Below, one piece after another: positions 39,608 to 59,422 of a stretch of DNA of 64,000 bases. Location of the stretch: the NCBI GenBank assembly GCA_000433675.1, contig FR893564.1:52660-116659 (forward strand). The letters run 5' to 3'. This DNA comes from Clostridium sp. CAG:433. Lineage in GTDB: Bacteria > Bacillota_I > Bacilli_A > RF39 > UBA660. The translations under genes and the position numbers were made by a program. Every line of letters starts with the position of its first letter. Position 1 is the first letter of the stretch. Under the pieces are notes generated by a model, which was given only the letters and a program-made list of their open reading frames with translations, did not search any database and had not been told where the DNA came from.

Positions 39608-39820
39608 TAACTACACTTTTTTCATATTTTAAGTCAAAAAAAGAGCCGTCCCCCCTGAAGGGCAGCTCTATAAAAAAGAATAAAAAGGGGTTGGCTAGTG
39701 TGATACTAGCACCAATTCGCCATTTGGGAATTGGTAGCATATATATTACTTATAAATAGGTAATTTGTCAAGTACTTTTTAAAAAATATGTTATAATATT
39801 TTTAAAGGATGTGAATAGTT

Positions 39821-41779
39821 TTGGCTGAGTTAACAAATATAAAAGGTATTGGACCTAAAACAGTAAGTACATTAAATAAACTTGGAATAAATAATGTTAA
39901 TGATTTAATAAATGATTATCCATATAGATACGAAATATTAAAACAAACTTCTTTATATGAAGAAAAAGTAGTAGTATCTGGAATTATAGAAACTATTCCA
40001 ACTATTAGTTACTTTAAAAATATGAATAGATTATCATTTAAGTTTAATACAAGTAATAATTTAGTAAATGTTGTAATATTTAATAGAGCTTTTTTAAAAC
40101 CTAATTTATTAATTGGAAAATATATAACTGTAATAGGTAAATATGATACTAAAAGTAATACAATAAATGCAGCAGATATAAAGTTATTTGATTTAGGTGA
40201 TAGAACATTAATAGAGCCTATTTATCATTTAGTAAAAGGTATAAATAATAAGTCATTAAATAAATATATAAATGAAGCATTAAATGAATGTAACGTTATA
40301 GATTATATACCAGAAGAAATAATAAATAAGTATAATTTTATAGATAAAAAAGAAGCACTTAGAATAATTCATAATCCAAAAAAAGGATTAAAGGATGCGA
40401 TAAATAGATGTAAATATGAAGAACTATTTATATTTATGATGAAAATAAATGCACTAAAAAGAAAAAACAATAATTTAAATATTGGCTATGAAAAAGATAT
40501 TGATATAACTAAAATTAATGAATTTATAAATGGATTACCATTTGAATTAACTGTTCATCAAAAAGAAGCATTAAATGATATATTTAAGGATTTAAAAAGT
40601 AATAAAAGAATGAATAGATTATTAGAAGGTGATGTTGGTTCAGGTAAAACAATAGTAGCATTAATAAGTATGTATGCGTTATATTTAAGTGGATATCAAA
40701 GTGCACTTATGGTTCCAACTGAAGTATTAGCTAATCAACATTATGAAAATTTTAAAAATCTATTAGAAGGATATAATATAGAAATTGCACTTCTAACAGG
40801 AAGTACTAAAAAAAGTGAAAAAAATCAAATATATGAAGATATAAAATCAGGTAAGATAAATATGGTAATAGGAACTCATGCCATAATAGAAGATGATATA
40901 AAATATAATAATTTAGGACTAGTAATAACAGATGAACAACATAGATTTGGAGTTAACCAGAGAAATAACTTAAGAAACAAAGGTAATATGCCTGATGTAC
41001 TTTATATGAGTGCAACTCCAATACCAAGAACATATGCTCTTACTATATATGGAGATATGGATATATCTATAATAAATACAATGCCTAGTGGAAGAAAAAA
41101 GATAATAACTAAAGTATTTGATAATAGTGATATTAAAAAGGTACTTGTAAAAATAAAACAAGAATTAGATTTAGGTCATCAAATATATATAGTATCTCCA
41201 TTAATAGAAGATTCAGAAGAAGAAATGGAAGATACTAAGAAACTAGAAAAGAAGTTTAAATTAGCATTTAAAAACTATAATATAGGTGTTATGCATGGTA
41301 GACTTTCGCCTAAAGAAAAAAATAAAGTTATGGATGACTTTGTAAATAAAAAAATAGATATATTAATAAGTACTACTGTAATAGAAGTTGGAGTAGATGT
41401 TAAAAATGCAACTATGATAGTTATATTTGATGCATATAAATTTGGACTTGCAACACTTCATCAATTAAGAGGTAGAGTAGGAAGAAATAGTGAACAATCC
41501 TACTGCGTTTTAATGACTAATAGAGAGACTGAAAGACTTAATATAATGGAAAATGTAAGTGATGGATTTACACTTGCTGAAGAAGATTTAAAACTAAGAG
41601 GATCAGGTGATTTATTTGGTATAAAACAAAGTGGTGATATGAGTTTTAAACTAGCAAATATTCAAAAAGATTATGAACTTTTGATAAAGGCTAAAGCTGA
41701 TTCTGAAGAAGTATTAGATAATATTGATAAATATGAAGTTTTAAAAAATATGTTAAAAGAAAGTATAAATATGGATTAA
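39821..41779 (+). CDS. recG: ATP-dependent DNA helicase RecG
   Basis: Wedge-domain N-terminus, Walker A LEGDVGSGKT, ITDEQHRFGV, helicase motifs V/VI (QLRGRVGR); apparent TTG start. Confidence 0.85.
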   Translation: MAELTNIKGIGPKTVSTLNKLGINNVNDLINDYPYRYEILKQTSLYEEKVVVSGIIETIPTISYFKNMNRLSFKFNTSNNLVNVVIFNRAFLKPNLLIGKYITVIGKYDTKSNTINAADIKLFDLGDRTLIEPIYHLVKGINNKSLNKYINEALNECNVIDYIPEEIINKYNFIDKKEALRIIHNPKKGLKDAINRCKYEELFIFMMKINALKRKNNNLNIGYEKDIDITKINEFINGLPFELTVHQKEALNDIFKDLKSNKRMNRLLEGDVGSGKTIVALISMYALYLSGYQSALMVPTEVLANQHYENFKNLLEGYNIEIALLTGSTKKSEKNQIYEDIKSGKINMVIGTHAIIEDDIKYNNLGLVITDEQHRFGVNQRNNLRNKGNMPDVLYMSATPIPRTYALTIYGDMDISIINTMPSGRKKIITKVFDNSDIKKVLVKIKQELDLGHQIYIVSPLIEDSEEEMEDTKKLEKKFKLAFKNYNIGVMHGRLSPKEKNKVMDDFVNKKIDILISTTVIEVGVDVKNATMIVIFDAYKFGLATLHQLRGRVGRNSEQSYCVLMTNRETERLNIMENVSDGFTLAEEDLKLRGSGDLFGIKQSGDMSFKLANIQKDYELLIKAKADSEEVLDNIDKYEVLKNMLKESINMD

Positions 41780-41880
41780 AGATATTGACTTTTAAATTAA
41801 AATATTTTATTATTAATATAGCGTAACGATATGTTACGTAACACACACTTTTACGGATATGTGTGAAAGTGTAACCAAAA

Positions 41881-41916
41881 CCCCCTGAAGGAGCCGAAAG
41901 GCTCCACTTTTTGTTT
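41881..41916 (+). terminator. rho-independent terminator after recG
   Basis: CCCCCTGAAG GGAGCC-gaaa-GGCTCC ACTTTTTGTTT. Confidence 0.7.
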
Positions 41917-41951: not shown

Positions 41952-41972
41952 CTACCCATCATCTACCCATCA
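41952..41972 (+). repeat. direct repeat (left att) of element 2
   Basis: CTACCCATCATCTACCCATCA; matches 53201-53221 with one mismatch. Confidence 0.7.
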
Positions 41973-42003
41973 TAATCTATGGTTTATATAAGTTTAATAT
42001 AGT

Positions 42004-43146
42004 TTATTTGGAAGACTTTTCATTAAAGTCTTTTTCTAATGTGTCAAAGAATTTTGGTACATTTGCAAGATCTTTTTTAAACATATGAGTATAAGTTTCT
42101 AGTGTTTCAGTAGTTTCAGAATGGCCTAAAAAGTTAGATACAGCAGTTATTGGAGCAGAGCCAGATATTAAGGCTGATGCACATGAATGTCTAAAGTCAT
42201 GTAATCTAATTCTTCTTACTCCAGCTTTTTCAGCATATTTATCTCTATAGAAATACATTCTACCTGTAGCCATTGGAACATCATCACCAAGTACAAACCA
42301 AGTTTGTTTGAATTTTGCTATTCGTTCATTTGATTTTTTTAGTTCTGCTAAGTCATTTAGTAGAGTAGTTGCGATTGGAATTGTTCTATTTGATGCTTCT
42401 GTTTTAGTGCTAGAAATATACCATTCTGTACTAGCATTAGAATTAGAGGGATTTAATACTTGTTGAGAAACAGTTAAAAGTTTATTTTTAAAGTCTATAT
42501 GTTTCCATTGTAATCCTCTTGCTTCAGACCTTCTTAATCCACAATAATATAATAATTCAAAGAAACATTTATATCTTAAATCATCAACTACTGAAATAAA
42601 TTTAAAGAATTCTTCAGGTTCGTAAAAATCCATTTCTTTCTTCAATGCCCCTGGAGTTTTAAAAGGCTCTAATTTATTATAAAATTTTCTTAAATTAAAA
42701 TCCCATTGTTTTTCAGCAAAGTTAATGACTTGCTTTATAAATTTTTGAATATCTGTTTTATATCTATCACAGAGATTTGTTTTATTAATTTGTGCTCTCC
42801 ATTTTTGATATAAATCCCAATCTAAGTTTACTAATTCTACATTATCTAGTAATCCCATATATTTGATTCTATCTCTATATGTCTTAAGAGTAGAATCTTT
42901 TATTTTATCTTTCTGATATTCATAATATATAGTGTAGGCTTCTTTAAATGTCATATGTGGATTTACTTCAACATCTTTATATTTATTTAAATATGCTTTT
43001 TCAGCCTGTATTGCTTCTTCTTCAGTCATATATGCTTGTGATTGATATTGATGTCTTTTACCATCTAAACCTTTACTATATTGTATAAATACCCAAGATC
43101 TTCCATCTTTTGTTATTTTATTTTCTTTAAGTTGTCTTACGGACAT
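42004..43146 (-). CDS. tyrosine integrase (phage-integrase family)
   Basis: C-terminal RLHDFRHSCAS…LGHSETTETLETYTHM catalytic motifs; 380 aa; adjacent to att repeat. Confidence 0.85.
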   Translation of the reverse strand: MSVRQLKENKITKDGRSWVFIQYSKGLDGKRHQYQSQAYMTEEEAIQAEKAYLNKYKDVEVNPHMTFKEAYTIYYEYQKDKIKDSTLKTYRDRIKYMGLLDNVELVNLDWDLYQKWRAQINKTNLCDRYKTDIQKFIKQVINFAEKQWDFNLRKFYNKLEPFKTPGALKKEMDFYEPEEFFKFISVVDDLRYKCFFELLYYCGLRRSEARGLQWKHIDFKNKLLTVSQQVLNPSNSNASTEWYISSTKTEASNRTIPIATTLLNDLAELKKSNERIAKFKQTWFVLGDDVPMATGRMYFYRDKYAEKAGVRRIRLHDFRHSCASALISGSAPITAVSNFLGHSETTETLETYTHMFKKDLANVPKFFDTLEKDFNEKSSK

Positions 43147-43294
43147 TTCATTCCTCCTTTTCTTATCCGTAAAATATCGACATACATCTATATTTTACCA
43201 TTTATTTATATATTTTTTTATATTTATCTTGTTTATCATTTTTTATTAAGAAAAAAGACCAACAATAGAGTTGATCTTTTAATAATTTGAAACG

Positions 43295-43879
43295 TTATTT
43301 TTTATTTTTGGTATTAATCTGTTTTTTTACATCTTCTTGCATTTTTATTAATTTATTGTGTACATATACATTAGCAATATCAATTTCTTCAGAATTTGGT
43401 GTTTTTAGTATTTTATCGCAGTTTGGACAATAATTTTGAGCAGTTCCATAATAATAATTTCCATAGGAACTTCTTTTAATTAATTCTCCTTTGCATTTGT
43501 TACATATTGGTCTAAAGTTTTTGATTGTTATTTCATTATATAACTCAGAGTAATTCCAAGCATATCTAATACCTTCATAAATATCATCATTATAATCTTC
43601 ATACCATTTTTTAATATTACTAGCATCGTTTATTTTAACAATAATTAATAAAATAGCAAATATTATTATACCTACTATTAACAATACCCATAATGGAATA
43701 TTAATATTAAGTATAAAAACGATACTATTGAATATCCATTTTAAAAAAGATAGTATTCCTTCTAATATGTTGATATCTTGTAGTTTAGAAGTTATTATTC
43801 CTCCAACTACAGTCACTATAACTGGTAATAAAAACCAAATCCAAATAGATTTAAAAATTTTTTTCATATGATAAATCAC
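43295..43879 (-). CDS. hypothetical membrane protein with C-terminal zinc ribbon
   Basis: Three predicted TM helices then CNKCKG…CPNCDK. Confidence 0.4.
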   Translation of the reverse strand: MIYHMKKIFKSIWIWFLLPVIVTVVGGIITSKLQDINILEGILSFLKWIFNSIVFILNINIPLWVLLIVGIIIFAILLIIVKINDASNIKKWYEDYNDDIYEGIRYAWNYSELYNEITIKNFRPICNKCKGELIKRSSYGNYYYGTAQNYCPNCDKILKTPNSEEIDIANVYVHNKLIKMQEDVKKQINTKNKK

Positions 43880-43911
43880 CTTTCGAAATGTTGTTTACAT
43901 AGATAATTATA

Positions 43912-45360
43912 TCATAATTCAAAGTCATCTGATTTATCTCGTTCATATTTTTTATTAACTTTTTTACTTAAATCTTTAAAAGCAGAGTAATCGTATTTCT
44001 GATTTTTATCAACATCAAATCCTAGCGTTCTTTTTAGTGCTTTATATAAATCTATTGCTATATTTTTAACATTACTAATAATTGTATCGATATTTTCTTT
44101 TAATTCAGTTAATTCATTTCTTAATGAACTAATTATTGTGTTTTGATATTTTATAGTATCATCTTTTTCTTTAATAATTAAATTTTGATTTTCGATTATT
44201 TTATCTTTTTCTATTAATGTTTTACCTGATTTAAGATTTTTAATTTCAGTATTTAATTTATCAATTTGTTTCTGTTTGGATTCTAATTTTATTTCATTTT
44301 GTTCTATTATTTTTGATTTATTCAAATTATCTTTAGTTATTTCTTTTGAGTATTTAGATAGATTATTTATATCTTTTTCTTTATATCCAATTATTTTGCT
44401 TTTTTCAGGATTTAGAAGAGGATTTGTATCTACATCAGATATTTTCTCTTTATATGATATTTCAACTTCATTTAGGGCTTTATTCTTATTTAATTCAAGT
44501 TCCATTAGTTTGTTTTCTTCCTGTAGTTCTTCTAAATATTTTTCTGCTTTTGTTTGATGATATTTATTTCCTCCAATTTGACCTCTATCAAGATTAAAAC
44601 CTTTAGATGTTATAAATTTATTATAATCATCTTGTATTTTAGCAAATGATGTTTTAAAGCCTTTATCCTTCCAAAACTGATCACAATTTAGAAATTTTCC
44701 TTTTTCTATTGAATATAAATTTTTACCGTTTTCATCTTTCTTTTGAATAGGTATTAACTTTTCTTTTCCGTCTTTTCCTATATAAGATTTTAATATTTGA
44801 TGACCATTACTATCTGTTTCAAATACTTTTCTATGAACTTCATTCACTACTGGAGTAAAATAAAAATGCATATGTGGAGTATCTTCATCAAAATGAATAG
44901 CAGAGTAGACTACGTTTTCCTTTCCAACTAAATTACTTAAAAATTCATGTGAATATTTAAAATAGTTTAATACTTGTTCTGGAATATCATTTGGATTATT
45001 AATAACTACTTTATTAATAGGTTCTCCTTTATGTTCTCCAGTTAAATATTTTCTTCCTGTATCTTCAAATTTCATTCCTAATGATTTAAAGAATTCTTGT
45101 CCACTTGTTATTATGCATCCATTTAATAAATTGATATTTTTGTTGCTCTTGTTAAATTCTACATTATTTTTATAGAGAGTTTTATATGTTGAACTAGCTA
45201 AATTAGTACTACATAATGGAATAAATTCAATGTTATATTTAGTTCTATTTGTATCATAATTACCTGTACCAATTCTATCAGTAAGTTCTTTACTAAGACC
45301 ACCAATATCTGAAGATTTAATTTTGTTTGTTATAGTTAAAACCTGTTTTCCATCAAACAT
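43912..45360 (-). CDS. MobV/Mob_Pre family relaxase (paralog of the 14978 gene)
   Basis: HFDEDTPHMHFYFTPVV motif III; coiled-coil C-terminus ending …DDFEL like the element-1 relaxase. Confidence 0.8.
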   Translation of the reverse strand: MFDGKQVLTITNKIKSSDIGGLSKELTDRIGTGNYDTNRTKYNIEFIPLCSTNLASSTYKTLYKNNVEFNKSNKNINLLNGCIITSGQEFFKSLGMKFEDTGRKYLTGEHKGEPINKVVINNPNDIPEQVLNYFKYSHEFLSNLVGKENVVYSAIHFDEDTPHMHFYFTPVVNEVHRKVFETDSNGHQILKSYIGKDGKEKLIPIQKKDENGKNLYSIEKGKFLNCDQFWKDKGFKTSFAKIQDDYNKFITSKGFNLDRGQIGGNKYHQTKAEKYLEELQEENKLMELELNKNKALNEVEISYKEKISDVDTNPLLNPEKSKIIGYKEKDINNLSKYSKEITKDNLNKSKIIEQNEIKLESKQKQIDKLNTEIKNLKSGKTLIEKDKIIENQNLIIKEKDDTIKYQNTIISSLRNELTELKENIDTIISNVKNIAIDLYKALKRTLGFDVDKNQKYDYSAFKDLSKKVNKKYERDKSDDFEL

Positions 45361-45625
45361 TTATATAAATCCTTTAATATATTTATGACATTGTGACATT
45401 AATAATATGTGTGGCTTTGAGGAATTGGTCATTTATGACCTATCTCACTAGGGCATAGCCCAAAAGTGAGTTAAGGGAATCCCTTAAAAACCCATTCTTG
45501 TTTAAGCAAAGACTTAAGGTGATTTAAGTCTAAGCAATAAACAAGTGATTATTTATTAAAAAATAAATAATCAGAAGATGAGCCATTATCGCCACTTTCA
45601 TTGCTACGCAACAAAACGTGCCACA
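45361..45625 (-). other. candidate oriT/promoter region upstream of relaxase
   Basis: Several short inverted repeats (CTCACT…AGTGAG; GACTTAA…TTAAGTC) in the 265-bp region 5' of the relaxase gene. Confidence 0.25.
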
Positions 45626-46582
45626 TTATTCATCTTCATTTTGTGAAGGCTCTATAAATGTAGCATGATATAATCTACTATCAGCAGTTCTACATTTAGT
45701 AATATGAACACCTTCACTTTCTAAAAGTTCAATACTATTATTTAGTAATCTTCCGAATCTTTTAGGTGACATTGGTATATTAGCTTTTAATACTATATCA
45801 GTACAGGTAAAATCAATTTCTTTTTGACTAGCAACATATTTTATAAACGATGTTAGTTCAAAAGATAATTCATCTTCCTCAATAGAATTTATTTTACGAA
45901 ATATAAGGTTATCTAATTTTTTTAATTGAATATCTATTTCTGAAAAATCTCTATTTATTGTTTGTAATTTAACATATTTTTTATTTGCTTTATTTTCAAT
46001 TAAAGTTATTCTTCCATCAACAGTTGCATCTAGTGCAATACTTCCTAATGTTTTACCGGTTTTATTTAGATGATGTGTAACTAAAAAAGTTACATTATAT
46101 TTATCACAATAAGTTCTTAATTTTGGAAATATTTGCTGTGATACATCTTGATAATTATTAATATCATATTGGACTCCAAAATCAATATCTTTTAACATAT
46201 CTAAAATTATAAGTTTGCCGTTATATTCTTCAGCAAATGTTTTTATATCATATTCTAAATCATTTAAAGATATATTTGCTTTATTCTGTCTATCAATTAT
46301 AAATAAAGAGTCTTTTTTTGCTGATAGTTCCATGAATTCTAGGCGTTCCTTTAATTGAATTTTATCTGATTCTGTGGTAACATATAAAACAGGTGAGGGA
46401 TTTACTTTGTATCCTAAAAATGGTGTTCCGTTAATAACGGAGCAGGAAAGTTGCAGTGCCAACATAGACTTTCCTACTTTTGGATTAGATACTAAGAGAT
46501 ACACACCTTTAGACTTCATTATATTATTTATGATGATGTCTTTTTTTATGTTTGTATCTATTTGTTCTATTGGTTTAAGCAA
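45626..46582 (-). CDS. RecA-fold ATPase (RepA/AAA_25-like)
   Basis: P-loop GVYLLVSNPKVGKSMLALQL; layout typical of mobile-element replication/primase-associated ATPases. Confidence 0.5.
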   Translation of the reverse strand: MLKPIEQIDTNIKKDIIINNIMKSKGVYLLVSNPKVGKSMLALQLSCSVINGTPFLGYKVNPSPVLYVTTESDKIQLKERLEFMELSAKKDSLFIIDRQNKANISLNDLEYDIKTFAEEYNGKLIILDMLKDIDFGVQYDINNYQDVSQQIFPKLRTYCDKYNVTFLVTHHLNKTGKTLGSIALDATVDGRITLIENKANKKYVKLQTINRDFSEIDIQLKKLDNLIFRKINSIEEDELSFELTSFIKYVASQKEIDFTCTDIVLKANIPMSPKRFGRLLNNSIELLESEGVHITKCRTADSRLYHATFIEPSQNEDE

Positions 46583-46829
46583 TTCTAATATCTCCTTTCA
46601 AATTTTTACTTTTTGACTCTAAATAGTCAATATCAATATTTAAATACTTAATAACTTCTTGCATAGGAACAGCATTCTTAGGAACATAATATCCTTCTTT
46701 TTCTAAGTCATTTTTAATTTTACTTTTAATAGCTAGTGCTGAATTTCTTCCTATGTTTGCTAATTTCATTAAATCTGATAAATTGCACCATTGTTGTGCG
46801 ATTAATTTTAAAGTTTCATCTACGGTCAT
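46575..46829 (-). CDS. hypothetical small protein (possible DNA-binding)
   Basis: 84 aa, overlaps start of ATPase gene by 8 nt. Confidence 0.3.
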   Translation of the reverse strand: MTVDETLKLIAQQWCNLSDLMKLANIGRNSALAIKSKIKNDLEKEGYYVPKNAVPMQEVIKYLNIDIDYLESKSKNLKGDIRIA

Positions 46830-46841
46830 ATTCCACCTCCT

Positions 46842-47174
46842 TTATCTTTCTAATTCTTTGTATTTCTTGTGTTTCAAATCAACTAAGTTTTTAAATTCAT
46901 CAGTTGGTTGTATTGAAACATTAAGACCAAGATATGAATCTTTATCTACACATTCTTCTAAATTATAAAAATGTGCATAATCATATTTTTCTAATTCTTT
47001 AGAACTTTTAATAGTTTCTTCTCTAGTATTTTGGTTTATTAATAATCTTCTAAGTGATTTAGTTAAGTCATAACAGATTAAACAATATAATCCTTTAGCA
47101 CTTAATGATAAATCAGGATTATCTAAAACATCTTTTCTTACTAAAGTGAAATATTTTTGATCCACTTTTAACAC
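46842..47174 (-). CDS. hypothetical small protein
   Basis: 110 aa; first gene of the leftward operon, divergent from the XRE gene. Confidence 0.3.
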   Translation of the reverse strand: MLKVDQKYFTLVRKDVLDNPDLSLSAKGLYCLICYDLTKSLRRLLINQNTREETIKSSKELEKYDYAHFYNLEECVDKDSYLGLNVSIQPTDEFKNLVDLKHKKYKELER

Positions 47175-47511
47175 CTCCTTTACTAATTTTAAAAGGGTAG
47201 AGCTCTACTTGAACTATTGCTCTTTGTGAAATTTTAGTTATTTCATAACTCCCGTGCCAATAGGGTATTCTGCCTTACTTTTTTTACTTAATGGCTTATC
47301 GGCGATTTCCACTAAGACTAAGTTTTCAAAGAACTATTTTTGAATGTAGAACGATGATATCGTTCATAAATTCAACTACATAATATCAAACCTAAATAAA
47401 CATGTCAATACATTTTGAACGATTTTTTCGTTCTTTTTTATTTACATTAAATTTTTATTATGGTAAAATGGATATAGATACCAGAAAAACGGTGAAAGAG
47501 AGGAATCTTTT

Positions 47512-48033
47512 ATGGCTAATAGTGATTTAAAAAATGTTATTGAGAATGCAAGAAAGGCACAAGGATATTCACAAAGACAATTAGCAAAACAAATAGGATT
47601 AAGTCAAAGTACATATAACGATACAATTAATGGAAAAATAAAAAAAGTTGATGTTGAGATTTTAAGAAAAATAGCAGAAGGCTTAAATCTTTCTTTAGAT
47701 TATTTATTAAAATTTTCTGGTTATGGTGATGTATATAGTTACATGAACGCCGAAAAATATTCAAATAAATCTACAAAAGATTTTGTTGAAATGTTAGACA
47801 AATATGAAAAATTTAAAATGGATATATTAGATTGGGATTATCAAAAAAGACAAAAGGCATTTGAGTTACAAGATTATATAAACAACATAAAAACTGAAAT
47901 AAGAATCATTTCAGCTGGAGGAGTTAGAAGAATGACTGATGAAGAACTTCTTCAAAATTTAGATGGAATGTATGAAATAACTAAGAAAATTGCTAAAAAG
48001 TATGATTATAGCAAATTACCGAAGGATTTATAG
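47512..48033 (+). CDS. XRE-family HTH transcriptional regulator
   Basis: HTH_3 motif SQRQLAKQIGLSQSTYNDTINGK. Confidence 0.7.
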   Translation: MANSDLKNVIENARKAQGYSQRQLAKQIGLSQSTYNDTINGKIKKVDVEILRKIAEGLNLSLDYLLKFSGYGDVYSYMNAEKYSNKSTKDFVEMLDKYEKFKMDILDWDYQKRQKAFELQDYINNIKTEIRIISAGGVRRMTDEELLQNLDGMYEITKKIAKKYDYSKLPKDL

Positions 48034-48044
48034 GAGGGTTAGTA

Positions 48045-48899
48045 ATGATAAAAGGAAAACCATTTGTAAAGTGGGCAGGTGGAAAAAGACAAATAATAGA
48101 TAAATTAAAAGAATATGTTCCATACGAGTTTAACACTTATTATGAACCATTTATAGGTGGTGGAGCATTATTATTTGAACTTTCACCTAAAAAAGCGGTT
48201 ATTAATGATTATAACAAAGAACTTATGAATGTATATGAATGTATTAAAGATGAAAAAAAATTCGAGGCAATGTGTAGAGAATTAAATCACCATGAAACTG
48301 AACATTCAGAAGAATACTATTATGAAGTTAGAAATATTGATAAAGATAAGAAGAAGTTTAATAAGTTAGCAGATTATAAAAGAGCAGCTCGTACTATTTA
48401 TTTAAATAAAGCTTGCTTTAACGGATTATATAGAGTTAATAGTAAAAATGAATTTAATGTACCATTTGGCAAGAAAACTAAAGTAAATACTTATGAAGGA
48501 CAAAATTTGGGTATTATATGTGGCTATTTAAATTATAATGACATTAAGTTATTATCAGTTGATTTTGAAGAGGCTGTAAAAGATGCCAAAAAAGGCGATT
48601 TTGTTTATTTTGATCCACCTTACGATTCTGATACTTCTACATTTAATAGTTATACTGAAGATGGTTTTGGAAAAGAAGAACAAAAAAGGCTTGCTAAAGT
48701 ATTTAAAGAATTATCTGATAGAGGATGCTATGTAATGCTTTCTAATCACAATACAACTTTAATAAATGAGTTATATAAAGATTTTCATATACATGTAATT
48801 GAGGCTAAAAGAAACATAAATGCTAATGGAAAGAAAAGGGGAAAAGTAGAAGAAGTTATTATAACAAACTTTGAAAATAAAAAAGGTTTTGAAGAATAG
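48045..48899 (+). CDS. Dam-family N6-adenine DNA methyltransferase (DpnM-like, GATC)
   Basis: FVKWAGGKRQ, YYEPFIGGGALLFEL, NGLYRVNSKNEFNVPFG, GDFVYFDPPY, YVMLSNHN…ELYKDFHIHVIEAKR – collinear with DpnM as recalled from memory; 284 aa. Confidence 0.85.
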   Translation: MIKGKPFVKWAGGKRQIIDKLKEYVPYEFNTYYEPFIGGGALLFELSPKKAVINDYNKELMNVYECIKDEKKFEAMCRELNHHETEHSEEYYYEVRNIDKDKKKFNKLADYKRAARTIYLNKACFNGLYRVNSKNEFNVPFGKKTKVNTYEGQNLGIICGYLNYNDIKLLSVDFEEAVKDAKKGDFVYFDPPYDSDTSTFNSYTEDGFGKEEQKRLAKVFKELSDRGCYVMLSNHNTTLINELYKDFHIHVIEAKRNINANGKKRGKVEEVIITNFENKKGFEE

Positions 48900-48915
48900 T
48901 TAAGGAGGTGGCAAT

Positions 48916-49683
48916 ATGTTTAAGAAACCATATTATGAAACAGATGGTTTTAAATTGATAAAAGGAGATTCATTTAAAGAATTAAAAAAGATTGAACCTA
49001 AATCAATAGACATGATTTTTGCAGATCCTCCTTATTTTTTATCTGGAGATGGTATAAGTTGTAGTGCAGGTAAAATGGTAAGTGTAAAAAAAGGTGAATG
49101 GGATGAAAAAATAAATATTGATAAAAAACATAAGTTTAATCGAAACTGGATTAAATTGTGTTACAATATTTTAAAAGATGAAGGAACAATATGGATTAGT
49201 GGAACAATGCATAATATTTACTCAATAGGTATGGCATTGGAACAAGAAGGCTTTAAAATAATAAATAATATAACTTGGAAAAAATTAAATCCACCACCGA
49301 ATATAAGCTGTCGTGCATTTGTTCACTCGACAGAAACAATTTTATGGGCAAAAAAAGATATTAAAAAAGCAAAACATAAATTTAATTATTCCTTGATGAA
49401 AGAGTTAAATGATAATAAACAAATGAAAGATGTTTGGGAGTCATCATTAACTAAACCTAGTGAGAAAAAACAAGGAAAACATCCAACTCAAAAACCTATT
49501 GCCATATTAGAAAGAATAATATTAGCATCTACAGATGAAGGAGATTTAATTTTAGATCCGTTTAATGGAAGTGGAACAACAGGAATTGTAGCGAATAAAT
49601 TAAATAGAAAATATATAGGAATAGAACAAGAAAAAGAATATTTAGATTTAACTATTAGAAGAAAGGAAGAAAATGATGAATAG
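48916..49683 (+). CDS. second N6/N4 DNA methyltransferase (DpnA-like, beta class)
   Basis: IFADPPYFLSGDG motif IV near the N-terminus, …HPTQKPIAILERII…, C-terminal FNGSGTTG (motif I). Confidence 0.8.
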   Translation: MFKKPYYETDGFKLIKGDSFKELKKIEPKSIDMIFADPPYFLSGDGISCSAGKMVSVKKGEWDEKINIDKKHKFNRNWIKLCYNILKDEGTIWISGTMHNIYSIGMALEQEGFKIINNITWKKLNPPPNISCRAFVHSTETILWAKKDIKKAKHKFNYSLMKELNDNKQMKDVWESSLTKPSEKKQGKHPTQKPIAILERIILASTDEGDLILDPFNGSGTTGIVANKLNRKYIGIEQEKEYLDLTIRRKEENDE

Positions 49684-50533
49684 AAATTTTAATGATTGGT
49701 TAAGTAAATTTAAAGCAAGTATTTCAAATTATAGTTATTATGTTGATTTTAACAAGATATATGGAAATGTAGACAAAATAAAAATTGAACTTAATATTTT
49801 AAATTCTTTAATTGGTAGTCAAAATATAGAAGAAGAATTTAGAAATATTATTTTTAAATATCCTGAAACATTGGAGTGTATTCCAGTTTTATTGGCAGTT
49901 AGATCAAATGAAATTTTTGTTAAAGATGAATTTGATGAATATTTATTCAAATTTAATAAAATGGTTTATTCAATTGATGATTATGTAAAATTCATGAAAG
50001 AAACTGGGTTATTTGATTTATTAGAAAATCATTTGATAAATAATTTATATGATTATGTTTTAGGTGTTGAAGTAGGCTTAGATTCAAATGGTAGAAAAAA
50101 TCGTGGTGGACATTTAATGGAAGATTTAGTAGAAAGTTATATTGTAAAAGCTGGATATGAAAAGAATGTTAATTATTTTAAAGAAATGTATTTAAGTGAC
50201 ATTGAAAAAAGATGGGGATTAGATTTATCTGCGATGTCTGGTGATAATACTTCTACAAAAAGATTTGATTTTGTTATTAAAACTGATAATCAGGTATATG
50301 TTATAGAAACTAATTTTTATGCTTCAGGTGGTTCGAAATTAAATGAAACAGCAAGAAGTTATAAAATGTTAGCAGAAGAATCAAAAAAAGTTGGTGGAGT
50401 AACATTTATATGGTTCACAGATGGAAAAGGTTGGAATAGTGCAAGAAAGAATCTTGAGGAAACATTTAATGAATTAGATACTTTATATTCAATAAATGAT
50501 TTGGAAAATGGTGTGTTAAATAATTTGGAGTGA
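49673..50533 (+). CDS. probable DpnII/MboI-like restriction endonuclease
   Basis: Third gene of a two-methylase cassette in the order of S. pneumoniae dpnM-dpnA-dpnB; 286 aa; overlaps upstream gene by 11 nt; no motif recognised by eye. Confidence 0.5.
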   Translation: MMNRNFNDWLSKFKASISNYSYYVDFNKIYGNVDKIKIELNILNSLIGSQNIEEEFRNIIFKYPETLECIPVLLAVRSNEIFVKDEFDEYLFKFNKMVYSIDDYVKFMKETGLFDLLENHLINNLYDYVLGVEVGLDSNGRKNRGGHLMEDLVESYIVKAGYEKNVNYFKEMYLSDIEKRWGLDLSAMSGDNTSTKRFDFVIKTDNQVYVIETNFYASGGSKLNETARSYKMLAEESKKVGGVTFIWFTDGKGWNSARKNLEETFNELDTLYSINDLENGVLNNLE

Positions 50534-50539
50534 TAAGCA

Positions 50540-52297
50540 GTGAATAATAGAATAATTAATAGTTATGTAGAAAATTTTTGTGGACAAAACGATTTTGATT
50601 CAAATAAATTTTTGTTATTTTCTACATATCAAATTTGTAAAAAACATAATTTAGATGAAAATATGTTAATTGATTGTGTTGTAGAAGGTGGAGGAGATGG
50701 TGGATTAGACTCTATTGTTGCATTAGTAGATAAAAAATATATATATTCTTTAGATGAATTTAATGAGTATGCTGAACAAATTAATGAAAACTCAAGAATA
50801 GATTTATACTTTATACAAGCAAAAGAAACAAATGGCATAAAAGAAACAGCATTTATGAAAATTAAAGATGTATTTGAAAAGTTGTTAGTTTCCAACAGTA
50901 TAACAGAAGAATTAAGAATACAATATAATCAAGTGTTAATAGAAAAATTCGAGTTAATAAATGAAATAATTATTAAATCATCTCCTAAAACAAATAATAT
51001 ATATATTAATGTTGCATATGCATATACAGGAAATTTAGATAAAGATAGTATTTCAATAGGAACTAAAAATCAAATTAATTCTATAAAAAAACTAGTTAGC
51101 GATACAACATATATAAATGAAGCAAATATATCCGTTGATATTTTTGATAGTAATAAATTAATTAACATAGCTAATAAAAGCATACAAAAAGATTATATAA
51201 TAAAATATAAAACGATTTTTAAAATGAATTATAGATCAGATAGTGAAAATGGTTTTGTTATGAATATGTCTATAAAGGATTATTATAATTTAATAACACA
51301 AGATAATGAAATTATCGATGTATTATTTGAAGGTAATATTCGTGATTTTGAAGGTCAAACAGTTGAGGTGAATAAAAATATAAAAAACACACTTGAAGAA
51401 GTTTATGATGCAGATTTTTGGTGGCTAAATAACGGCATAACTATGATAGTTGATTCGTATACTCCATTGCCAAATGATAGTGCGAAGGTTGTAAATCCTA
51501 TAATAGTTAATGGACTTCAAACTTCATATACAATATTTAATTATTTTAAAGAAAATATTGATAAGCTAGAAAATGAAGACAGAAACATATTACTTAAAAT
51601 AGTTAATACTGATAGCATAAATATCTCTGATATGATTATATCATCAACAAATAGGCAAAATGCTGTTAAACCAGCACAACTAAAAGCTACAGATCCGATA
51701 CAAAAAGACATAGAACAATTATTGTTGAAAAATGGTATATATTATGAAAGAAGAAAAAATTATTATAAAAACAGAGGAATTGATAAACATAAAATAGTGA
51801 CATTAGAAAACTTAGCTCAATATCTAGAATCAATTTATTATGGTAATTGCAGTGGAGCACGTAATAATCCAACTACATTATTAAAAAGTGAAAAACTTTA
51901 TAACAAATTATTTAATAATAGTATAAATCCTAATATATATACTATAACATCTGAAGTCGCTCTAAAAACATTAGAATGTTTAAGAAAAATCAAAAAAAAT
52001 AATGATGATATTTTTAACAAAAAACATTCTGTTTCATTAGATATATTTAAATTTTATATTATGAGAATGATTGTATTATGTTTATGTGGTAACAACATAA
52101 GTGAAAACTACTTAGAAATAGATTTAGAAAAAATAGATTATGATTTAACAGTAAATATTATTAATAAATTAGAATCTATAGTATCAGATATAAAAGATGA
52201 TAACGATAATATCATTAATATTTCTAAATCAAAAGAATTAGATAATAAAATTAATTCAGAAGATTTGTCTGAAATATGCTTAAAAGTAACTACTTAA
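50540..52297 (+). CDS. AIPR-like abortive-infection protein
   Basis: N-terminal VVEGGGDGGLDSIVAL resembling the AIPR GDGG(I/L)D signature; 585 aa; directly downstream of an RM cassette. Confidence 0.5.
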   Translation: MNNRIINSYVENFCGQNDFDSNKFLLFSTYQICKKHNLDENMLIDCVVEGGGDGGLDSIVALVDKKYIYSLDEFNEYAEQINENSRIDLYFIQAKETNGIKETAFMKIKDVFEKLLVSNSITEELRIQYNQVLIEKFELINEIIIKSSPKTNNIYINVAYAYTGNLDKDSISIGTKNQINSIKKLVSDTTYINEANISVDIFDSNKLINIANKSIQKDYIIKYKTIFKMNYRSDSENGFVMNMSIKDYYNLITQDNEIIDVLFEGNIRDFEGQTVEVNKNIKNTLEEVYDADFWWLNNGITMIVDSYTPLPNDSAKVVNPIIVNGLQTSYTIFNYFKENIDKLENEDRNILLKIVNTDSINISDMIISSTNRQNAVKPAQLKATDPIQKDIEQLLLKNGIYYERRKNYYKNRGIDKHKIVTLENLAQYLESIYYGNCSGARNNPTTLLKSEKLYNKLFNNSINPNIYTITSEVALKTLECLRKIKKNNDDIFNKKHSVSLDIFKFYIMRMIVLCLCGNNISENYLEIDLEKIDYDLTVNIINKLESIVSDIKDDNDNIINISKSKELDNKINSEDLSEICLKVTT

Positions 52298-52351
52298 TAA
52301 CATATATGTATATAATGTCATAATGTCATTAGTTAAAAAATATTAGGAGGT

Positions 52352-53026
52352 TTGGATATGAAAATGAGAAGTCAAATTATAATTGATTTAATTAATAATA
52401 AAATAAATATTACTCAAGCTATGGATACTTTAAAAATATTATTAAATGATATAGACAATCCAGAAATTAAAAATTGGTTGCTAAAAGAAATTGACGGTTA
52501 TAATCAAGATGATGATATTCCAAAATATAGAATTGTTCCAGCAACTATCACTGGAGAATATCTTGCAAGTTATGGAAGGATTCATGCAAAAAAACACCCA
52601 ATACCTATCGATCCACAATATATAGCTGATTGGAATTCAGTAAAAATTTTTGCTGGAATAAATGAAATATACCAATTTTCATTAGCAGAACAAAAAGAAG
52701 ACAGTCATCACTTATCAATATCATTACATCCAGTTTTAGTCAATCAAATAGCAATGATCGATGGCGAAGTGTTAGAAGCACATCAAGATTTATCAATTTA
52801 TGCTTATACTAATATAATAGGAAAATTAAAAGAAATAATACTTGATATTTTATTAAAATTAGAAAAAGAATATGGAAATTTAGATAGCTATTATATTGAA
52901 TTTGAGAATGATGAAAAAGAAAAGCAAACAATAAATTATATTATTAGCATAATAGACAATTCAATTAAATTTGGAGATAAGAATACTATAAAAAATTCTA
53001 ATATTGGTGATGAAAATGAAAATTAA
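52352..53026 (+). CDS. hypothetical protein (possible Abi-associated component)
   Basis: 224 aa; RBS AGGAGG; last protein-sized gene before right att. Confidence 0.4.
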   Translation: MDMKMRSQIIIDLINNKINITQAMDTLKILLNDIDNPEIKNWLLKEIDGYNQDDDIPKYRIVPATITGEYLASYGRIHAKKHPIPIDPQYIADWNSVKIFAGINEIYQFSLAEQKEDSHHLSISLHPVLVNQIAMIDGEVLEAHQDLSIYAYTNIIGKLKEIILDILLKLEKEYGNLDSYYIEFENDEKEKQTINYIISIIDNSIKFGDKNTIKNSNIGDENEN

Positions 53027-53183
53027 AATTGGAAAGAAAAATAAATTTAAAAATGTAAATATGGGTAATAACAATATAATTAACGAAGATAAAAACAATA
53101 AATCAAATATTATCATAGATATAATTGTCGGAATAATAGTTGCAGTTATTGGAGCTATAATTATAAAATTGTTAAAAATATAA
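53016..53183 (+). CDS. small membrane peptide (55 aa), translationally coupled
   Basis: ATG at 53016 overlaps the stop region of the upstream ORF; MKIKIGKKNKFKNVNMGNNNIINEDKNNKSNIIIDIIVGIIVAVIGAIIIKLLKI has a C-terminal TM helix; below the size cutoff of the ORF track. Confidence 0.4.
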   Translation: MKIKIGKKNKFKNVNMGNNNIINEDKNNKSNIIIDIIVGIIVAVIGAIIIKLLKI

Positions 53184-53200
53184 ATAGCTGACAAGTATTT

Positions 53201-53221
53201 CTACCCATCAGCTACCCATCA
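53201..53221 (+). repeat. direct repeat (right att) of element 2
   Basis: CTACCCATCAGCTACCCATCA. Confidence 0.7.
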
Positions 53222-53327: not shown

Positions 53328-53360
53328 CCCCCTGAAGAGAGCGAAAGCTCTCATTTTTTT
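53328..53360 (+). terminator. rho-independent terminator (CCCCCTGAAG-type)
   Basis: CCCCCTGAAG AGAGC-gaa-AGCTCTC ATTTTTTT. Confidence 0.7.
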
Positions 53361-53547: not shown

Positions 53548-53994
53548 ATGTTGAATATGTCAAATAGTGAACAAAAAAATGTAAATAGTGAAAATAATAC
53601 ATTAATTATAAATAATAAAAATTATGAAATAGATAAAATAGAAATCTGTGGTAAATACAATATTGAATTAGTAACTAAAAATTCAAATATAACATTATAT
53701 CTAGATTTAAATAAAGACGTTATTGCCTCATTAGTTTTAAATGAAAAAACTAATATTTCTGATAAAATAAGTAAAGACCAAAATATAAAAATAGAAAATA
53801 TTAGTTATACATTTTATATTGAAAATGAATTATATATAACAAAAATAAATGATAATGGGTATAAAATTGAATTATCAATGCCTAATATAGAATTATTAAT
53901 TCCGCCATTTGATGAAATAAATAAATCAAGAAATGATACTAATAAATCATTTTTAAAAAATATTTACTTAAATGTCGTTATTGAATTAAAATAA
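53548..53994 (+). CDS. hypothetical protein
   Basis: 148-aa N/K-rich ORF upstream of the Type IIG RM gene. Confidence 0.35.
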   Translation: MLNMSNSEQKNVNSENNTLIINNKNYEIDKIEICGKYNIELVTKNSNITLYLDLNKDVIASLVLNEKTNISDKISKDQNIKIENISYTFYIENELYITKINDNGYKIELSMPNIELLIPPFDEINKSRNDTNKSFLKNIYLNVVIELK

Positions 53995-54190
53995 AAATAT
54001 AAATAAATCAAAAATTTATACTTGATAATCTTTATGTTCAAAATTTTAAGTGGTATAATAAAACTATACTTTTTTCTTAGAAATATAGTTTTTATATAAA
54101 AATAAAAAGTAGTTGATATAAAGTGAATTTAAGTAACTAAATGTAGATTCATAAAAAATATAAGATAAACAATCAGTTAGGAGTACAGAC

Positions 54191-56926: not shown

Positions 56927-56958
56927 AAAATAACTAGTTCTTTTTTGAACTAGTTATT

Positions 56959-57519: not shown

Positions 57520-57626
57520 CCCCTTTCATGAACTATTATACCATATAGTATATATTTGTCGCTTATTTGGCGACCAATTTTAAATTTTATTTTGATAATA
57601 TATTGGTGAAAAGAGGAGTGAGAATA

Positions 57627-58798: not shown

Positions 58799-58817
58799 TG
58801 TATTGTGAGGTAAAAAA

Positions 58818-59408: not shown

Positions 59409-59422
59409 AGGAGTGCATAAAA

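What the first reader, a model, noticed from the sequence alone, without database searches (positions are those of the whole stretch)
41952..53221. About 11.3-kb integrative mobilizable element carrying a DpnII-like GATC RM cassette plus Abi module
Near-identical 21-bp direct repeats (CTACCCATCA[T/G]CTACCCATCA) at 41952 and 53201 bracket the element. A tyrosine integrase abuts the left repeat, followed by a leftward operon (membrane/zinc-ribbon protein, MobV relaxase, AAA ATPase, two small proteins). A divergently transcribed XRE regulator follows. The defence cargo comprises a Dam-type methylase closely resembling DpnM, a second beta-class methylase (DPPY near the N-terminus, as in DpnA), a 286-aa candidate endonuclease, and then an AIPR-like gene, a 224-aa gene and a 55-aa TM peptide. 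The gene order and sizes (284/255/286 aa) mirror the pneumococcal dpnM-dpnA-dpnB cassette. The relaxase is paralogous to the one in element 1, and both end in …DDFEL. This suggests a family of related mobilizable islands in this genome.
Basis: partly seen in the sequence, partly recalled or inferred. Interest (0 to 1): 0.7.

Follow-up and report, generated by a model that had tools for sequence, protein, structure and literature searches.

The report
Mobilizable island carrying DpnII restriction system

Summary
The 21-bp repeats are real. So are the integrase, MobV-type relaxase, AAA ATPase, XRE regulator, DpnM/DpnA/DpnB-like genes, AIPR (AbiU) and AbiTii genes.

The repeats do not bracket the element. 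An empty site from the same species, plus junctions in at least four other host backgrounds, place the crossover in a 10-bp core, CCCCCTGAAG (41881-41890 and 53328-53337). The element is 11,447 bp.

The core lies in the unpaired linker of a conserved, covarying ~92-nt small-RNA gene downstream of recG that is not in Rfam. The element supplies a replacement terminator for it. The 21-bp repeats are two pairs of CTACCCATCA inside the element, probably integrase arm sites.

Copies are 99.94-99.99% identical in hosts whose RecG is only 53-54% identical, which means recent horizontal transfer.

The backbone recurs, with integrase at least 77% identical, in 27 fetched genome loci (17 of them over 90%). 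The slot after XRE holds a different restriction system in each member examined.

Excision, conjugative transfer and GATC methylation are inferred, not shown. A known kind of element; moderately interesting.

The parts
41785..41912 (+). Target gene: candidate small RNA 'sRNA-1'. Promoter is TTGACT-17-TATTAT (41785-41813). The transcript runs about 41821-41912: hairpin P1, hairpin P2, unpaired linker AACCAAAACCCCCUGAAG, then a terminator. In this occupied site the terminator GGAGCCGAAAGGCTCC + T-run (41890-41912) is supplied by the element.
   Evidence: 19 homologues from different species all fold into the same three hairpins. The outer 6 pairs of P1 and 5 pairs of P2 are 17-19/19 canonical with 3-5 pair types each. 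Promoter and terminator were found by scan. No Rfam family matches.
41881..41890 (+). attL core CCCCCTGAAG (crossover region)
   Evidence: Host sequence diverges immediately to the left of this 10-mer in five host backgrounds, while the element sequence to the right is identical. The empty site L011 holds a single copy.
41952..41972 (+). Left pair of CTACCCATCA 10-mers (probable P' arm-type integrase sites), 71 nt from the core and inside the element
   Evidence: The motif keeps its distance from the core across family members even where the flanking sequence diverges. Other elements using the same core carry other repeats.
42004..43146 (-). Tyrosine integrase (380 aa)
   Evidence: Pfam Phage_integrase E 2.7e-28. 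SAM_3 and Arm-DNA-bind_4 match only weakly, below threshold. The identical protein lies next to recG in different hosts.
43295..43867 (-). Accessory slot 2: 190-194-aa membrane protein with a CxxC...CxxC zinc ribbon, function unknown
   Evidence: No family match. In relatives the slot holds Fic (L026) or a CHAT-domain protein (L033) instead. A terminator follows at 43280-43253.
43912..45360 (-). MobV-type (Mob_Pre) relaxase, 482 aa. It has the HFDEDTPHMH motif, Glu25 at the position of MobM catalytic His22, and a C-terminal DDFEL.
   Evidence: Pfam Mob_Pre 52.6 bits (cut-off 25.5). NCBIfam MobV 89 bits, below the cut-off of 100. hhalign to the MobM N-domain gives 99.6% probability. Plasmid MobV identity is at most 28%.
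45435..45497 (-). Candidate oriT core: TTAAGGGATTCCCTTAA CTCAC-N4-GGGCTATGCCC-TAGTGAG/ATAGG. TAGTGAG is at 45450-45444.
   Evidence: The mob-upstream region 45340-45650 (which includes the 45361-45625 intergenic spacer) is 84-86% identical in members whose integrase is about 80% identical. This block is near-invariant even in the more divergent members L020 and L027. It resembles the mapped MOBV1 nick sites TAGTGTG/TTA and TAGTGCG/TTA (PMC5090054).
45626..46582 (-). AAA_25 (RepA/DnaB-like RecA-fold) ATPase, 318 aa; probably a helicase for the excised circle
   Evidence: Pfam AAA_25 E 1.4e-23. PHROG primase/helicase families match.
46575..46829 (-). 84-aa protein, possibly a helix-turn-helix (excisionase or regulator candidate)
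   Evidence: No family match. AF2 pLDDT 72, with no significant fold match. Conserved in the backbone.
46842..47165 (-). 107-aa protein, first gene of the leftward operon
   Evidence: Only a weak PHROG replication-initiator match, E 1.4e-3. The AF2 model is unusable, pLDDT 46.
47349..47469 (.). Divergent switch region. Leftward promoter is TTGACA-17-TATTAT (47408->47380). Rightward promoter is TTTACA-17-TAAAAT (47441-47469). Two palindromes GAACGA-N5-TCGTTC lie at 47349-47365 and 47417-47433.
   Evidence: Members with another XRE type carry GTCCGA motifs here instead.
47512..48033 (+). XRE-family regulator (173 aa), first gene of the rightward (cargo) operon
   Evidence: Pfam HTH_3 E 3.6e-15. 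It is 42% identical in L035 and L038, which carry the same DpnII cassette, and 86% identical in L040, which carries another cargo.
48045..48899 (+). DpnM-like Dam-class (D12) m6A methyltransferase
   Evidence: Pfam E 1.4e-63. 49% identical to DpnM, PDB 2DPM, E 2.4e-86. 50% identical to the first methylase of pSRQ700.
48916..49683 (+). DpnA-like beta-class methyltransferase (DPPY near the N-terminus)
   Evidence: Pfam N6_N4_Mtase E 1.1e-64. 66% identical to the second methylase of the pSRQ700 cassette.
49673..50533 (+). DpnB-like DpnII-family restriction endonuclease
   Evidence: Pfam DpnII E 6.3e-110, covering 5-283 of 286 residues. PADLOC REase_II E 4.9e-100. 36% identical to the pSRQ700 enzyme.
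50540..52297 (+). AbiU-type AIPR protein (585 aa)
   Evidence: PADLOC AbiU E 9e-131, full length. Pfam AIPR E 1.1e-35.
52352..53183 (+). AbiTii (222-224 aa) and an overlapping 57-59-aa peptide with a C-terminal TM helix
   Evidence: Pfam and PADLOC AbiTii, E about 2e-27. The peptide is called as a gene in public assemblies.
53201..53221 (+). Right pair of CTACCCATCA 10-mers (probable P arm sites), 107 nt left of the attR core
   Evidence: The same motif occurs at the right end of the L036 relative.
53328..53337 (+). attR core CCCCCTGAAG, followed by the host's own terminator GAGAGCGAAAGCTCTC + T-run (53337-53360)
   Evidence: Element identity ends exactly after this 10-mer in four different right-flank contexts. 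The sequence matches the empty site.

Best explanation
An 11,447-bp canonical integrative mobilizable element (IME).

Shown here:
- It sits between two copies of the core CCCCCTGAAG, in the unpaired linker just 5' of the terminator of a conserved small-RNA gene downstream of recG.
- It brings its own terminator hairpin, so the RNA gene stays complete.
- It is absent from an otherwise identical site in the same species.
- It is virtually identical in distantly related hosts.

Inferred mechanism:
- The tyrosine integrase binds the core and the two pairs of CTACCCATCA arm sites that flank the core in the circular form. It catalyses integration and, with an accessory factor (perhaps the 84-aa protein), excision.
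- The excised circle is nicked by the MobV-type relaxase at the conserved inverted-repeat block upstream of mobV, near TAGTGAG/A. One strand is exported through the mating pore of a co-resident conjugative element.
- The AAA_25 ATPase may support replication of the circle.
- An XRE repressor acts on two GAACGA-N5-TCGTTC palindromes between divergent promoters. These promoters control the mobility operon leftward and the XRE-cargo operon rightward.

Cargo:
- a DpnII-type system: a Dam-class methylase, a DpnA-like second methylase and a GATC endonuclease
- AbiU
- AbiTii with a small membrane peptide

Together these should protect the host from phage and stabilise the element. The family has a conserved backbone and an exchangeable restriction-system slot.
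For: Limits and mobility:
- Empty site L011.
- Left junction identical in five host contexts and right junction in four.
- 99.94-99.99% nucleotide identity across hosts whose RecG is 53-54% identical.
- Tandem arrays with other elements at the same core.

Genes:
- Domain assignments.
- No mating-pore or coupling-protein domain among the element's ORFs.

Cis sites:
- Arm motif conserved at a fixed distance from the core.
- oriT-like block conserved and similar to mapped MOBV1 nick sites.
- Operator motifs co-vary with XRE type.

RM identity.

Family:
- 27 fetched genome loci (L019-L045) with integrase at least 77% identical. 17 of the 27 loci also carry a detectable recG, and in the ones whose junction was read the element abuts the sRNA gene downstream of it.
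- Cargo differs among members: Type III, AlwI, Type IIG/ISP-like, TdeIII, C5-methylase sets and DpnII.
Against: - No circular (attP) junction was found. The one metagenome scan for it returned only hybrid or tandem junctions.
- No helper conjugative element or mating-pore gene is visible in the window, so transfer by conjugation is inferred from the relaxase alone.
- The relaxase scores below NCBIfam's MobV cut-off. It has Glu where MobM has its catalytic His22, so its chemistry is unverified.
- No excisionase could be identified.
- GATC methylation cannot be tested from sequence. GATC observed/expected is 0.6, which is not distinctive.
Confidence: 0.85

Rival explanations
1. The 21-bp direct repeats are the attachment sites or target duplication, and the element is the 11.27-kb segment between them.
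For: The repeats are highly non-random and lie near both ends.
Against: The empty site contains no copy of the repeat. Both repeats lie within DNA that is absent from the empty site and that travels with the element into other hosts. Identity with host flanks stops at CCCCCTGAAG, not at the repeats.
Confidence: 0.01
2. The element is a phage satellite or phage-related island that moves by transduction. The Mob_Pre protein would then act only as a plasmid-type recombination or replication enzyme.
For: - The layout of integrase, divergent XRE switch, and small proteins plus AAA_25 helicase recalls phage-inducible islands.
- PHROG matches to primase/helicase families.
- One relative lies on an IMG/VR contig.
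Against: - No capsid, terminase, portal or packaging gene, and no match to 50,697 phage records.
- A full-length relaxase with a conserved oriT-like block resembling mapped MOBV1 nick sites.
- The IMG/VR contig shows only integrase, relaxase and a second degenerate integrase.
Confidence: 0.06
3. The island is now immobile, a fixed defence island inherited vertically whose mobility genes are relics.
For: No circular form was found. Decayed relatives exist, such as L014 with only integrase and 107-aa fragments.
Against: All mobility ORFs are intact. There are 1-7 nucleotide differences in 11.3 kb between hosts with 53-54% identical RecG. A precise empty site exists in the same species.
Confidence: 0.03
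4. XRE is the controller (C) protein of the DpnII cassette, and the RM genes form an autonomous mobile unit that merely landed in the island.
For: XRE lies 11 nt upstream of dpnM with no terminator between them. PADLOC 'Control_protein' models match weakly, E 6e-6.
Against: - L035 and L038 carry the same cassette (dpnM 91-92% identical) behind an XRE only 42% identical. L040 has an 86% identical XRE in front of C5 methylases.
- Operator motifs sit at the backbone's divergent promoters.
- The protein is 173 aa. As a recalled comparison (not checked here), C proteins are roughly 80-100 aa.
Confidence: 0.05

Closest known systems
IMESag-rpsI of Streptococcus agalactiae, and other canonical MobV-encoding IMEs (Tn6215, Tn4451, ATE-1, Tn5520), as reviewed in PMC5704250 and PMC5090054
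   Same: - Size of about 9-11 kb and integration at a single site.
- An own site-specific recombinase and a MobV-type relaxase with oriT upstream of mob.
- No mating-pore genes.
- Site-specific tandem accretion.
- RM systems as cargo or addiction modules are described for IMEs.
   Different: - The target is a small-RNA gene rather than the 3' end of rpsI or another protein or tRNA gene.
- The relaxase is at most 28% identical to plasmid MobVs and has Glu at the MobM His22 position.
- The backbone includes an AAA_25 ATPase.
- The hosts are uncultured low-GC gut Bacilli.
- Excision and mobilisation are not demonstrated here.
DpnII system of Streptococcus pneumoniae (dpnM-dpnA-dpnB) and LlaDCHI of Lactococcus plasmid pSRQ700
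   Same: - Same three-gene order and similar sizes: 284/255/286 aa here against 284/269/304 aa in pSRQ700.
- 49% identity to DpnM.
- 50%, 66% and 36% identity to the three pSRQ700 proteins.
- Full-length Pfam DpnII match.
   Different: - Carried on an integrative element behind an XRE gene.
- GATC specificity and single-strand methylation by the second methylase are inferred from homology only.
- The pneumococcal DpnA and DpnB sequences were not compared directly.
Lactococcal abortive-infection systems AbiU and AbiT (AbiTii)
   Same: Full-length PADLOC AbiU match (E 9e-131). AbiTii domain match (E 2e-26).
   Different: There is no AbiTi-like partner upstream. Instead a 57-59-aa membrane peptide overlaps the 3' end of AbiTii. 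No phenotype is known.
Arm-site-dependent tyrosine integrases (lambda Int, Tn916 Int); this comparison is from recalled knowledge
   Same: A short core with identity between attP and attB. Repeated 10-bp motifs at fixed distances on both sides of the core within the element ends.
   Different: The arm-binding domain is detected only weakly (Arm-DNA-bind_4, 17 bits against a cut-off of 22.3). Binding was not tested.
Defence-carrying mobile islands with exchangeable cargo hotspots (for example SXT/R391 ICE hotspots and pipolins, PMC11551731)
   Same: A conserved mobility backbone with a slot that holds a different defence system in each member.
   Different: Here the slot is the distal part of the regulator's own operon. 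In the members examined it almost always holds a restriction-modification system. A second small slot lies between mobV and int.

Membership tests
Integrative mobilizable element (canonical IME) | Own site-specific recombinase with attL/attR flanking the element and an attB in empty genomes | tested here: met
   Integrase domain. Core CCCCCTGAAG at both ends, with a single copy in empty site L011.
Integrative mobilizable element (canonical IME) | Encodes a relaxase | tested here: met
   Pfam Mob_Pre above the gathering score. hhalign to the MobM relaxase domain gives 99.6% probability.
Integrative mobilizable element (canonical IME) | Carries an oriT recognised by that relaxase | tested here: inconclusive
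   A conserved inverted-repeat block with a TAGTGAG/A motif lies upstream of mobV and is similar to mapped nick sites. No nicking data exist.
Integrative mobilizable element (canonical IME) | Lacks its own mating-pore (T4SS) genes | tested here: met
   None of the 14 ORFs matches a T4SS or coupling-protein family. Three small or membrane ORFs remain unassigned.
Integrative mobilizable element (canonical IME) | Excises as a circle and is mobilised in trans by a conjugative helper | not testable with these tools
   The attP-junction scan of metagenome contigs found only hybrid junctions. Near-identity across distant hosts shows transfer but not its route.
MOBV1 relaxases (MobM type) | Metal-binding motif HxDE..PHxH | tested here: met
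   HFDEDTPHMH at residues 156-165. H156, D158, E159, P162 and H163 are invariant in 20 relatives.
MOBV1 relaxases (MobM type) | Motif I HxxR with the catalytic histidine (MobM His22) | tested here: not met
   The profile alignment places Glu25 opposite His22. Glu is present in 19 of 20 clade members. The protein scores below the NCBIfam MobV cut-off. It is therefore filed as a Mob_Pre/MOBV-superfamily relaxase, not as MOBV1.
DpnII-type RM system | DpnII-family endonuclease | tested here: met
   Pfam PF04556 E 6.3e-110, full length.
DpnII-type RM system | Two methylases (Dam-class, then beta-class) upstream of the nuclease in the order M1-M2-R | tested here: met
DpnII-type RM system | GATC recognition, m6A methylation, and cleavage of unmethylated GATC | not testable with these tools
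   Inferred from 49-66% identity to the methylases of characterised GATC systems. GATC observed/expected of 0.6 is uninformative.
AbiT two-gene system | AbiTi partner gene next to AbiTii | tested here: not met
   Only AbiTii matches. The adjacent 57-59-aa peptide has no family match.
Rfam small-RNA families (for the target gene) | Match to any curated covariance model | tested here: not met
   No hit at gathering score. The best hit at E<=1 is PrrF at 21.6 bits against a threshold of 90.

The most novel reading that the evidence does not exclude
The family's attachment site is the invariant C-rich linker of a previously undescribed structured small RNA. That RNA may pair with a second undescribed small RNA encoded on the other side of recG, whose terminator loop carries the complement, C(U)UCAGGGGG.

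By targeting this invariant 10-mer and replacing the RNA's terminator, one IME family would gain a host range spanning genera of uncultured gut Bacilli. It would act there as a main vehicle for swapping restriction systems.

It would do so using a MobV-like relaxase clade that has lost the MobM-type histidine nucleophile, perhaps in favour of the clade-conserved Tyr167.
Probability: 0.3. Interest if true: 0.65.

Novelty: new member of a known kind. Interest (0 to 1): 0.45.

Why it matters
It gives a precisely delimited, apparently active mobile element for a group of gut bacteria that nobody has cultured.

- Virtually identical copies in hosts as distant as 53% RecG identity imply ongoing gene flow in the human and animal gut.
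- The family shows how restriction and abortive-infection systems are exchanged as cassettes behind a fixed mobility backbone.
- The integrase, core and arm sites could serve as an integration tool for these organisms.
- The target and its neighbour add two candidate small RNAs with strong comparative support.
- The relaxase clade offers a test of whether MobV-type enzymes can work without the histidine nucleophile.

Tried and rejected
- **Rfam on the whole window and on both intergenic RNAs:** only tRNA-Thr was found.
- **MAFFT plus RNAalifold on the sRNA homologues:** the alignment was not structural and recovered only the terminator. I replaced it with per-sequence folds and a helix-anchored alignment.
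- **AlphaFold2 without an alignment:** the 107-aa protein gave pLDDT 46, unusable. The 84-aa protein gave pLDDT 72, but Foldseek against PDB found nothing with E<0.5. No excisionase call was made.
- **Exact-pattern scan of metagenome contigs for the attP junction:** two hits, both right ends of relatives joined to other left ends or host terminators. Neither is a circle of this element.
- **Megablast of the element against plasmids and phages:** no match.
- **GATC observed/expected as a proxy for RM activity:** 0.6, similar to other palindromes, so uninformative.
- **Codon reassignment known in RFN20 Bacilli (PMC8629427):** AGG is rare and ATG is the normal Met codon. CGG is almost absent, so nothing can be said.
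- **IMG/VR relative:** integrase, relaxase and a degenerate integrase only, with no phage genes examined further.
- **pMV158 record:** not held in the plasmid collection.
- **Pluta et al. 2017:** could not be read.


Full report
**Observation**

Both 21-bp repeats are present at 41952-41972 and 53201-53221, and none is expected by chance. Each is two copies of the 10-mer CTACCCATCA separated by one base. The window is about 25% G+C. Strand skew flips at the leftward operon. Only one tRNA (Thr, 12110) and no other Rfam family is found.

**Genes**

- RecG, 39821-41779
- tyrosine integrase, 42004-43146 (-)
- a membrane protein with a CxxC...CxxC ribbon, 43295-43879 (-)
- Mob_Pre relaxase, 43912-45360 (-)
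- AAA_25 ATPase, 45626-46582 (-)
- two small ORFs of 84 and 107-110 aa
- XRE regulator, 47512-48033
- D12 (Dam-class) methylase, 48045-48899
- N6_N4 methylase, 48916-49683
- a full-length DpnII-family endonuclease, 49673-50533 (Pfam E 6.3e-110)
- an AIPR protein that PADLOC identifies as AbiU (E 9e-131), 50540-52297
- AbiTii, 52352-53026
- an overlapping 57-59-aa peptide with a C-terminal membrane helix

The first methylase is 49% identical to pneumococcal DpnM (PDB 2DPM, E 2.4e-86). The Lactococcus plasmid pSRQ700 carries the same M1-M2-R order. Its three proteins are 50%, 66% and 36% identical to those here. The system is therefore a DpnII/LlaDCHI-type cassette. GATC specificity is inferred from homology.

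**True limits**

Looking up the exact RecG protein in public assemblies returned 22 contigs. Most carry the element. One, L011, goes from the same recG straight into the same 148-aa and 911-aa genes that follow the element in the window. Aligning this empty site to the window shows that the left and right flanks overlap in a 44-nt imperfect repeat. Only the 10-mer CCCCCTGAAG is identical. That 10-mer lies at 41881-41890 and 53328-53337.

Looking up the exact integrase and the exact AbiTii gave the element in other hosts, with RecG of 665 or 673 aa and different neighbours, and in tandem arrays. In five left-junction contexts and four right-junction contexts, identity with the window begins or ends exactly at that 10-mer. 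The element is therefore 11,447 bp. The 21-bp repeats lie inside it, 71 nt from the left core and 107 nt from the right core.

**Target**

The core is not in anonymous spacer. Downstream of recG lie:
- a strong promoter, TTGACT-17-TATTAT (41785-41813)
- about 92 nt that fold into two hairpins
- an unpaired linker AACCAAAACCCCCUGAAG
- a GNRA-capped terminator

Nineteen homologues from different species fold independently into the same architecture. In a helix-anchored alignment, the outer six pairs of P1 and five pairs of P2 are canonical in 17-19 of 19 sequences, with three to five pair types each. The linker CCCCCUGAAG is invariant. No Rfam model matches.

The crossover falls in the linker. 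The element carries its own terminator (GGAGCCGAAAGGCUCC) in place of the host's (GAGAGCGAAAGCUCUC), so the RNA gene remains complete after integration. This is the logic known for elements that insert into the 3' ends of tRNA genes.

Other, different elements use the same core with other repeats at about the same distance:
- TAGGTACCCA x2 in L015/L016
- AACTACCAA x2 in L079
- TTTAGGTACAA x2 in L084

**Arm sites**

The CTACCCATCA pair keeps its position relative to the core in all family members examined, including those whose surrounding sequence has diverged. The same motif occurs at the right end of the L036 relative. In the circular form the two pairs would flank the core.

Together with the different repeats of the other elements at this site, this fits arm-type integrase binding sites. 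The arm-binding domain itself is seen only weakly.

**Mobility**

Across 11.3 kb the element differs by 1-7 nucleotides (99.94-99.99% identity) between hosts whose RecG proteins are 53-54% identical. That can only reflect recent horizontal transfer.

A scan of one genome per species returned 27 loci (L019-L045) whose integrase is at least 77% identical; 17 of them are over 90%. They come from MAGs labelled uncultured Bacilli, Tenericutes, Mollicutes or Candidatus Coprovivens. A few short contigs binned as Bacteroidota are probably mis-binned. A recG is detectable on 17 of the 27 loci, and where the junction was read the element abuts the sRNA gene downstream of it.

The backbone (int, mobV, AAA_25, 84-aa, 107-aa) is conserved in the longer loci, which cover more than the integrase.

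The slot after XRE holds different cargo in each member:
- Type III RM (L026, L033)
- a D12 methylase with an AlwI-family nuclease (L031)
- a 1342-aa helicase-methylase fusion (L032)
- a D12 methylase with a TdeIII-family nuclease (L036)
- two C5 methylases with an AAA_5 protein (L040)
- Eco57I-type and C5 methylases (L020)
- the DpnII cassette (L035, L038, window)

A second small slot between mobV and int holds the membrane/zinc-ribbon protein here and in L040, Fic in L026, and a CHAT-domain protein in L033. L014 is a decayed relative.

**Transfer functions**

The relaxase aligns with the MobM relaxase domain at 99.6% probability and has the HxDE..PHxH motif. It is at most 28% identical to plasmid MobVs. 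It scores below NCBIfam's MobV cut-off. Its clade is small: 31 clusters at E<=1e-30 among 1.84 billion representatives.

Opposite MobM's catalytic His22 it has Glu25, as do 19 of 20 relatives. Tyr167 is nearly invariant in the clade. I therefore file it in the Mob_Pre/MOBV superfamily but not in MOBV1.

The region upstream of mobV (45340-45650, which includes the 265-nt intergenic spacer) is 84-86% identical in members whose integrase is about 80% identical. It contains a block, TTAAGGGATTCCCTTAA CTCAC-N4-GGGCTATGCCC-TAGTGAG/ATAGG, that is near-invariant even in the more divergent members L020 and L027. Its TAGTGAG resembles the mapped nick sites TAGTGTG/TTA (pMV158) and TAGTGCG/TTA (IMESag-rpsI) (PMC5090054). 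This is my oriT candidate; it is inferred, not shown.

No mating-pore gene is present in the element or evident in the window, so a helper is required. None is identified.

The DDFEL tail is conserved in the family. DD[FY]E[LR]-like tails occur in more distant clade members. The second relaxase of the window shares the tail but only 35% identity over 43 residues, and it keeps a KHNxR motif.

**Regulation**

The best promoter in the region (11 of 12 matches) points leftward from 47408. A rightward one lies at 47441-47469. Two palindromes GAACGA-N5-TCGTTC lie at 47349-47365 and 47417-47433.

Members with an XRE 86-100% identical keep these palindromes. Members whose XRE is 42-47% identical have GTCCGA repeats instead, while the adjacent leader stays conserved. 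XRE type does not follow cargo type.

XRE is thus the element's exchangeable repressor, not an RM controller. Because dpnM starts 11 nt after XRE with no terminator between them, the cargo is probably co-transcribed with it. That last point is inferred.

**What was not found**

- No circular junction.
- No similar DNA in plasmid or phage collections.
- No fold assignment for the 84-aa and 107-aa proteins.
- No informative GATC bias.

**Comparison and verdict**

Canonical IMEs with a MobV relaxase and their own recombinase, RM systems as IME cargo, and site-specific tandem accretion are all described (PMC5704250, PMC5090054). This is a new, well-delimited member and family of that kind. It has three unusual details: a small-RNA target, an RM-swapping cargo slot, and a relaxase without the MobM histidine.

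Noticed in passing
window 41785-41912 (+): A conserved, covarying small RNA of about 92 nt with its own promoter and terminator lies downstream of recG. It is absent from Rfam, and its invariant linker CCCCCUGAAG is the att core. Homologues occur next to recG in at least 19 species loci.
   Followed up: yes
window about 39637-39771 (-), between the DUF1653 gene and recG: A second candidate small RNA lies on the opposite strand. Its promoter is TTGACA-17-TAATAT. It has hairpins CACCAAUUC...GAAUUGGUG and CUAGUAUCACACUAG, then CCAACCCCUUUUUAUUC, then a terminator. The terminator stem covaries. Its loop C(U)UCAGGGGG is complementary over 8-11 nt to the sRNA-1 linker. The RNA is conserved in 14 species loci, and the loop motif is missing in one of them (L019). 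It holds the window's third copy of CCCCCTGAAG (39651). No Rfam match.
   Followed up: partly
window 43912-45360 (-), residues 25 and 167: The relaxase clade has a near-invariant Glu where MobM has its catalytic His22, and a near-invariant Tyr just after the PHxH motif. This raises the question of which residue is the nucleophile.
   Followed up: partly
It consists of tRNA-Thr, a large serine recombinase (12767-14707) and a Mob_Pre relaxase (14942-16360) ending in DDFEL. Large ORFs with no Pfam match follow up to about 28043.
   Followed up: partly
window 53548-63328: The host flank right of the element is itself rich in defence-like genes. It holds a 911-aa Type IIG RM enzyme (54191-56926; PADLOC E 4.5e-112), then VWA, NUDIX/RelB, MazG-like, NOV_C and DUF2441 proteins.
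   Followed up: partly
L015/L016 about 12060-12230; L079 about 3970-4080; L084 about 490-620: Other elements occupy the same CCCCCTGAA(G) core. They bring their own terminator hairpins and different tandem arm repeats: TAGGTACCCA, AACTACCAA and TTTAGGTACAA. One brings an amino-acid/ATP-grasp/radical-SAM gene cluster. The small-RNA gene is an integration hotspot.
   Followed up: partly
L014 12200-21959: A decayed relative lies at the same locus in the same species. It has fragments of the integrase and the 107-aa gene, then a 46%-identical XRE followed by D12 methylase, HNH, GmrSD and Fic genes.
   Followed up: partly
L085 2847-6171: On this metagenome contig a family right end and core are followed, about 600 bp later, by a DpnII cassette 93% identical to the window's. 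This arrangement does not fit the standard element layout.
   Followed up: no
whole window, coding regions: CGG is almost unused: 1 in 6,521 host codons and 0 in 3,181 element codons. AGG is rare. Some RFN20 Bacilli are reported to reassign these codons (PMC8629427). There is no evidence either way here.
   Followed up: partly
L010, L015-L017 against L011-L014, upstream of rpsP (locus coordinates about 1-4400): Contigs with the identical RecG differ upstream of the S16 gene. Some have PriA-S2-EF-Ts-RRF-CotE. Others have a 773-aa protein, an EF-Tu-domain protein, a Band7/SHOCT protein and a 477-aa protein. This is a second variable region in this species.
   Followed up: no
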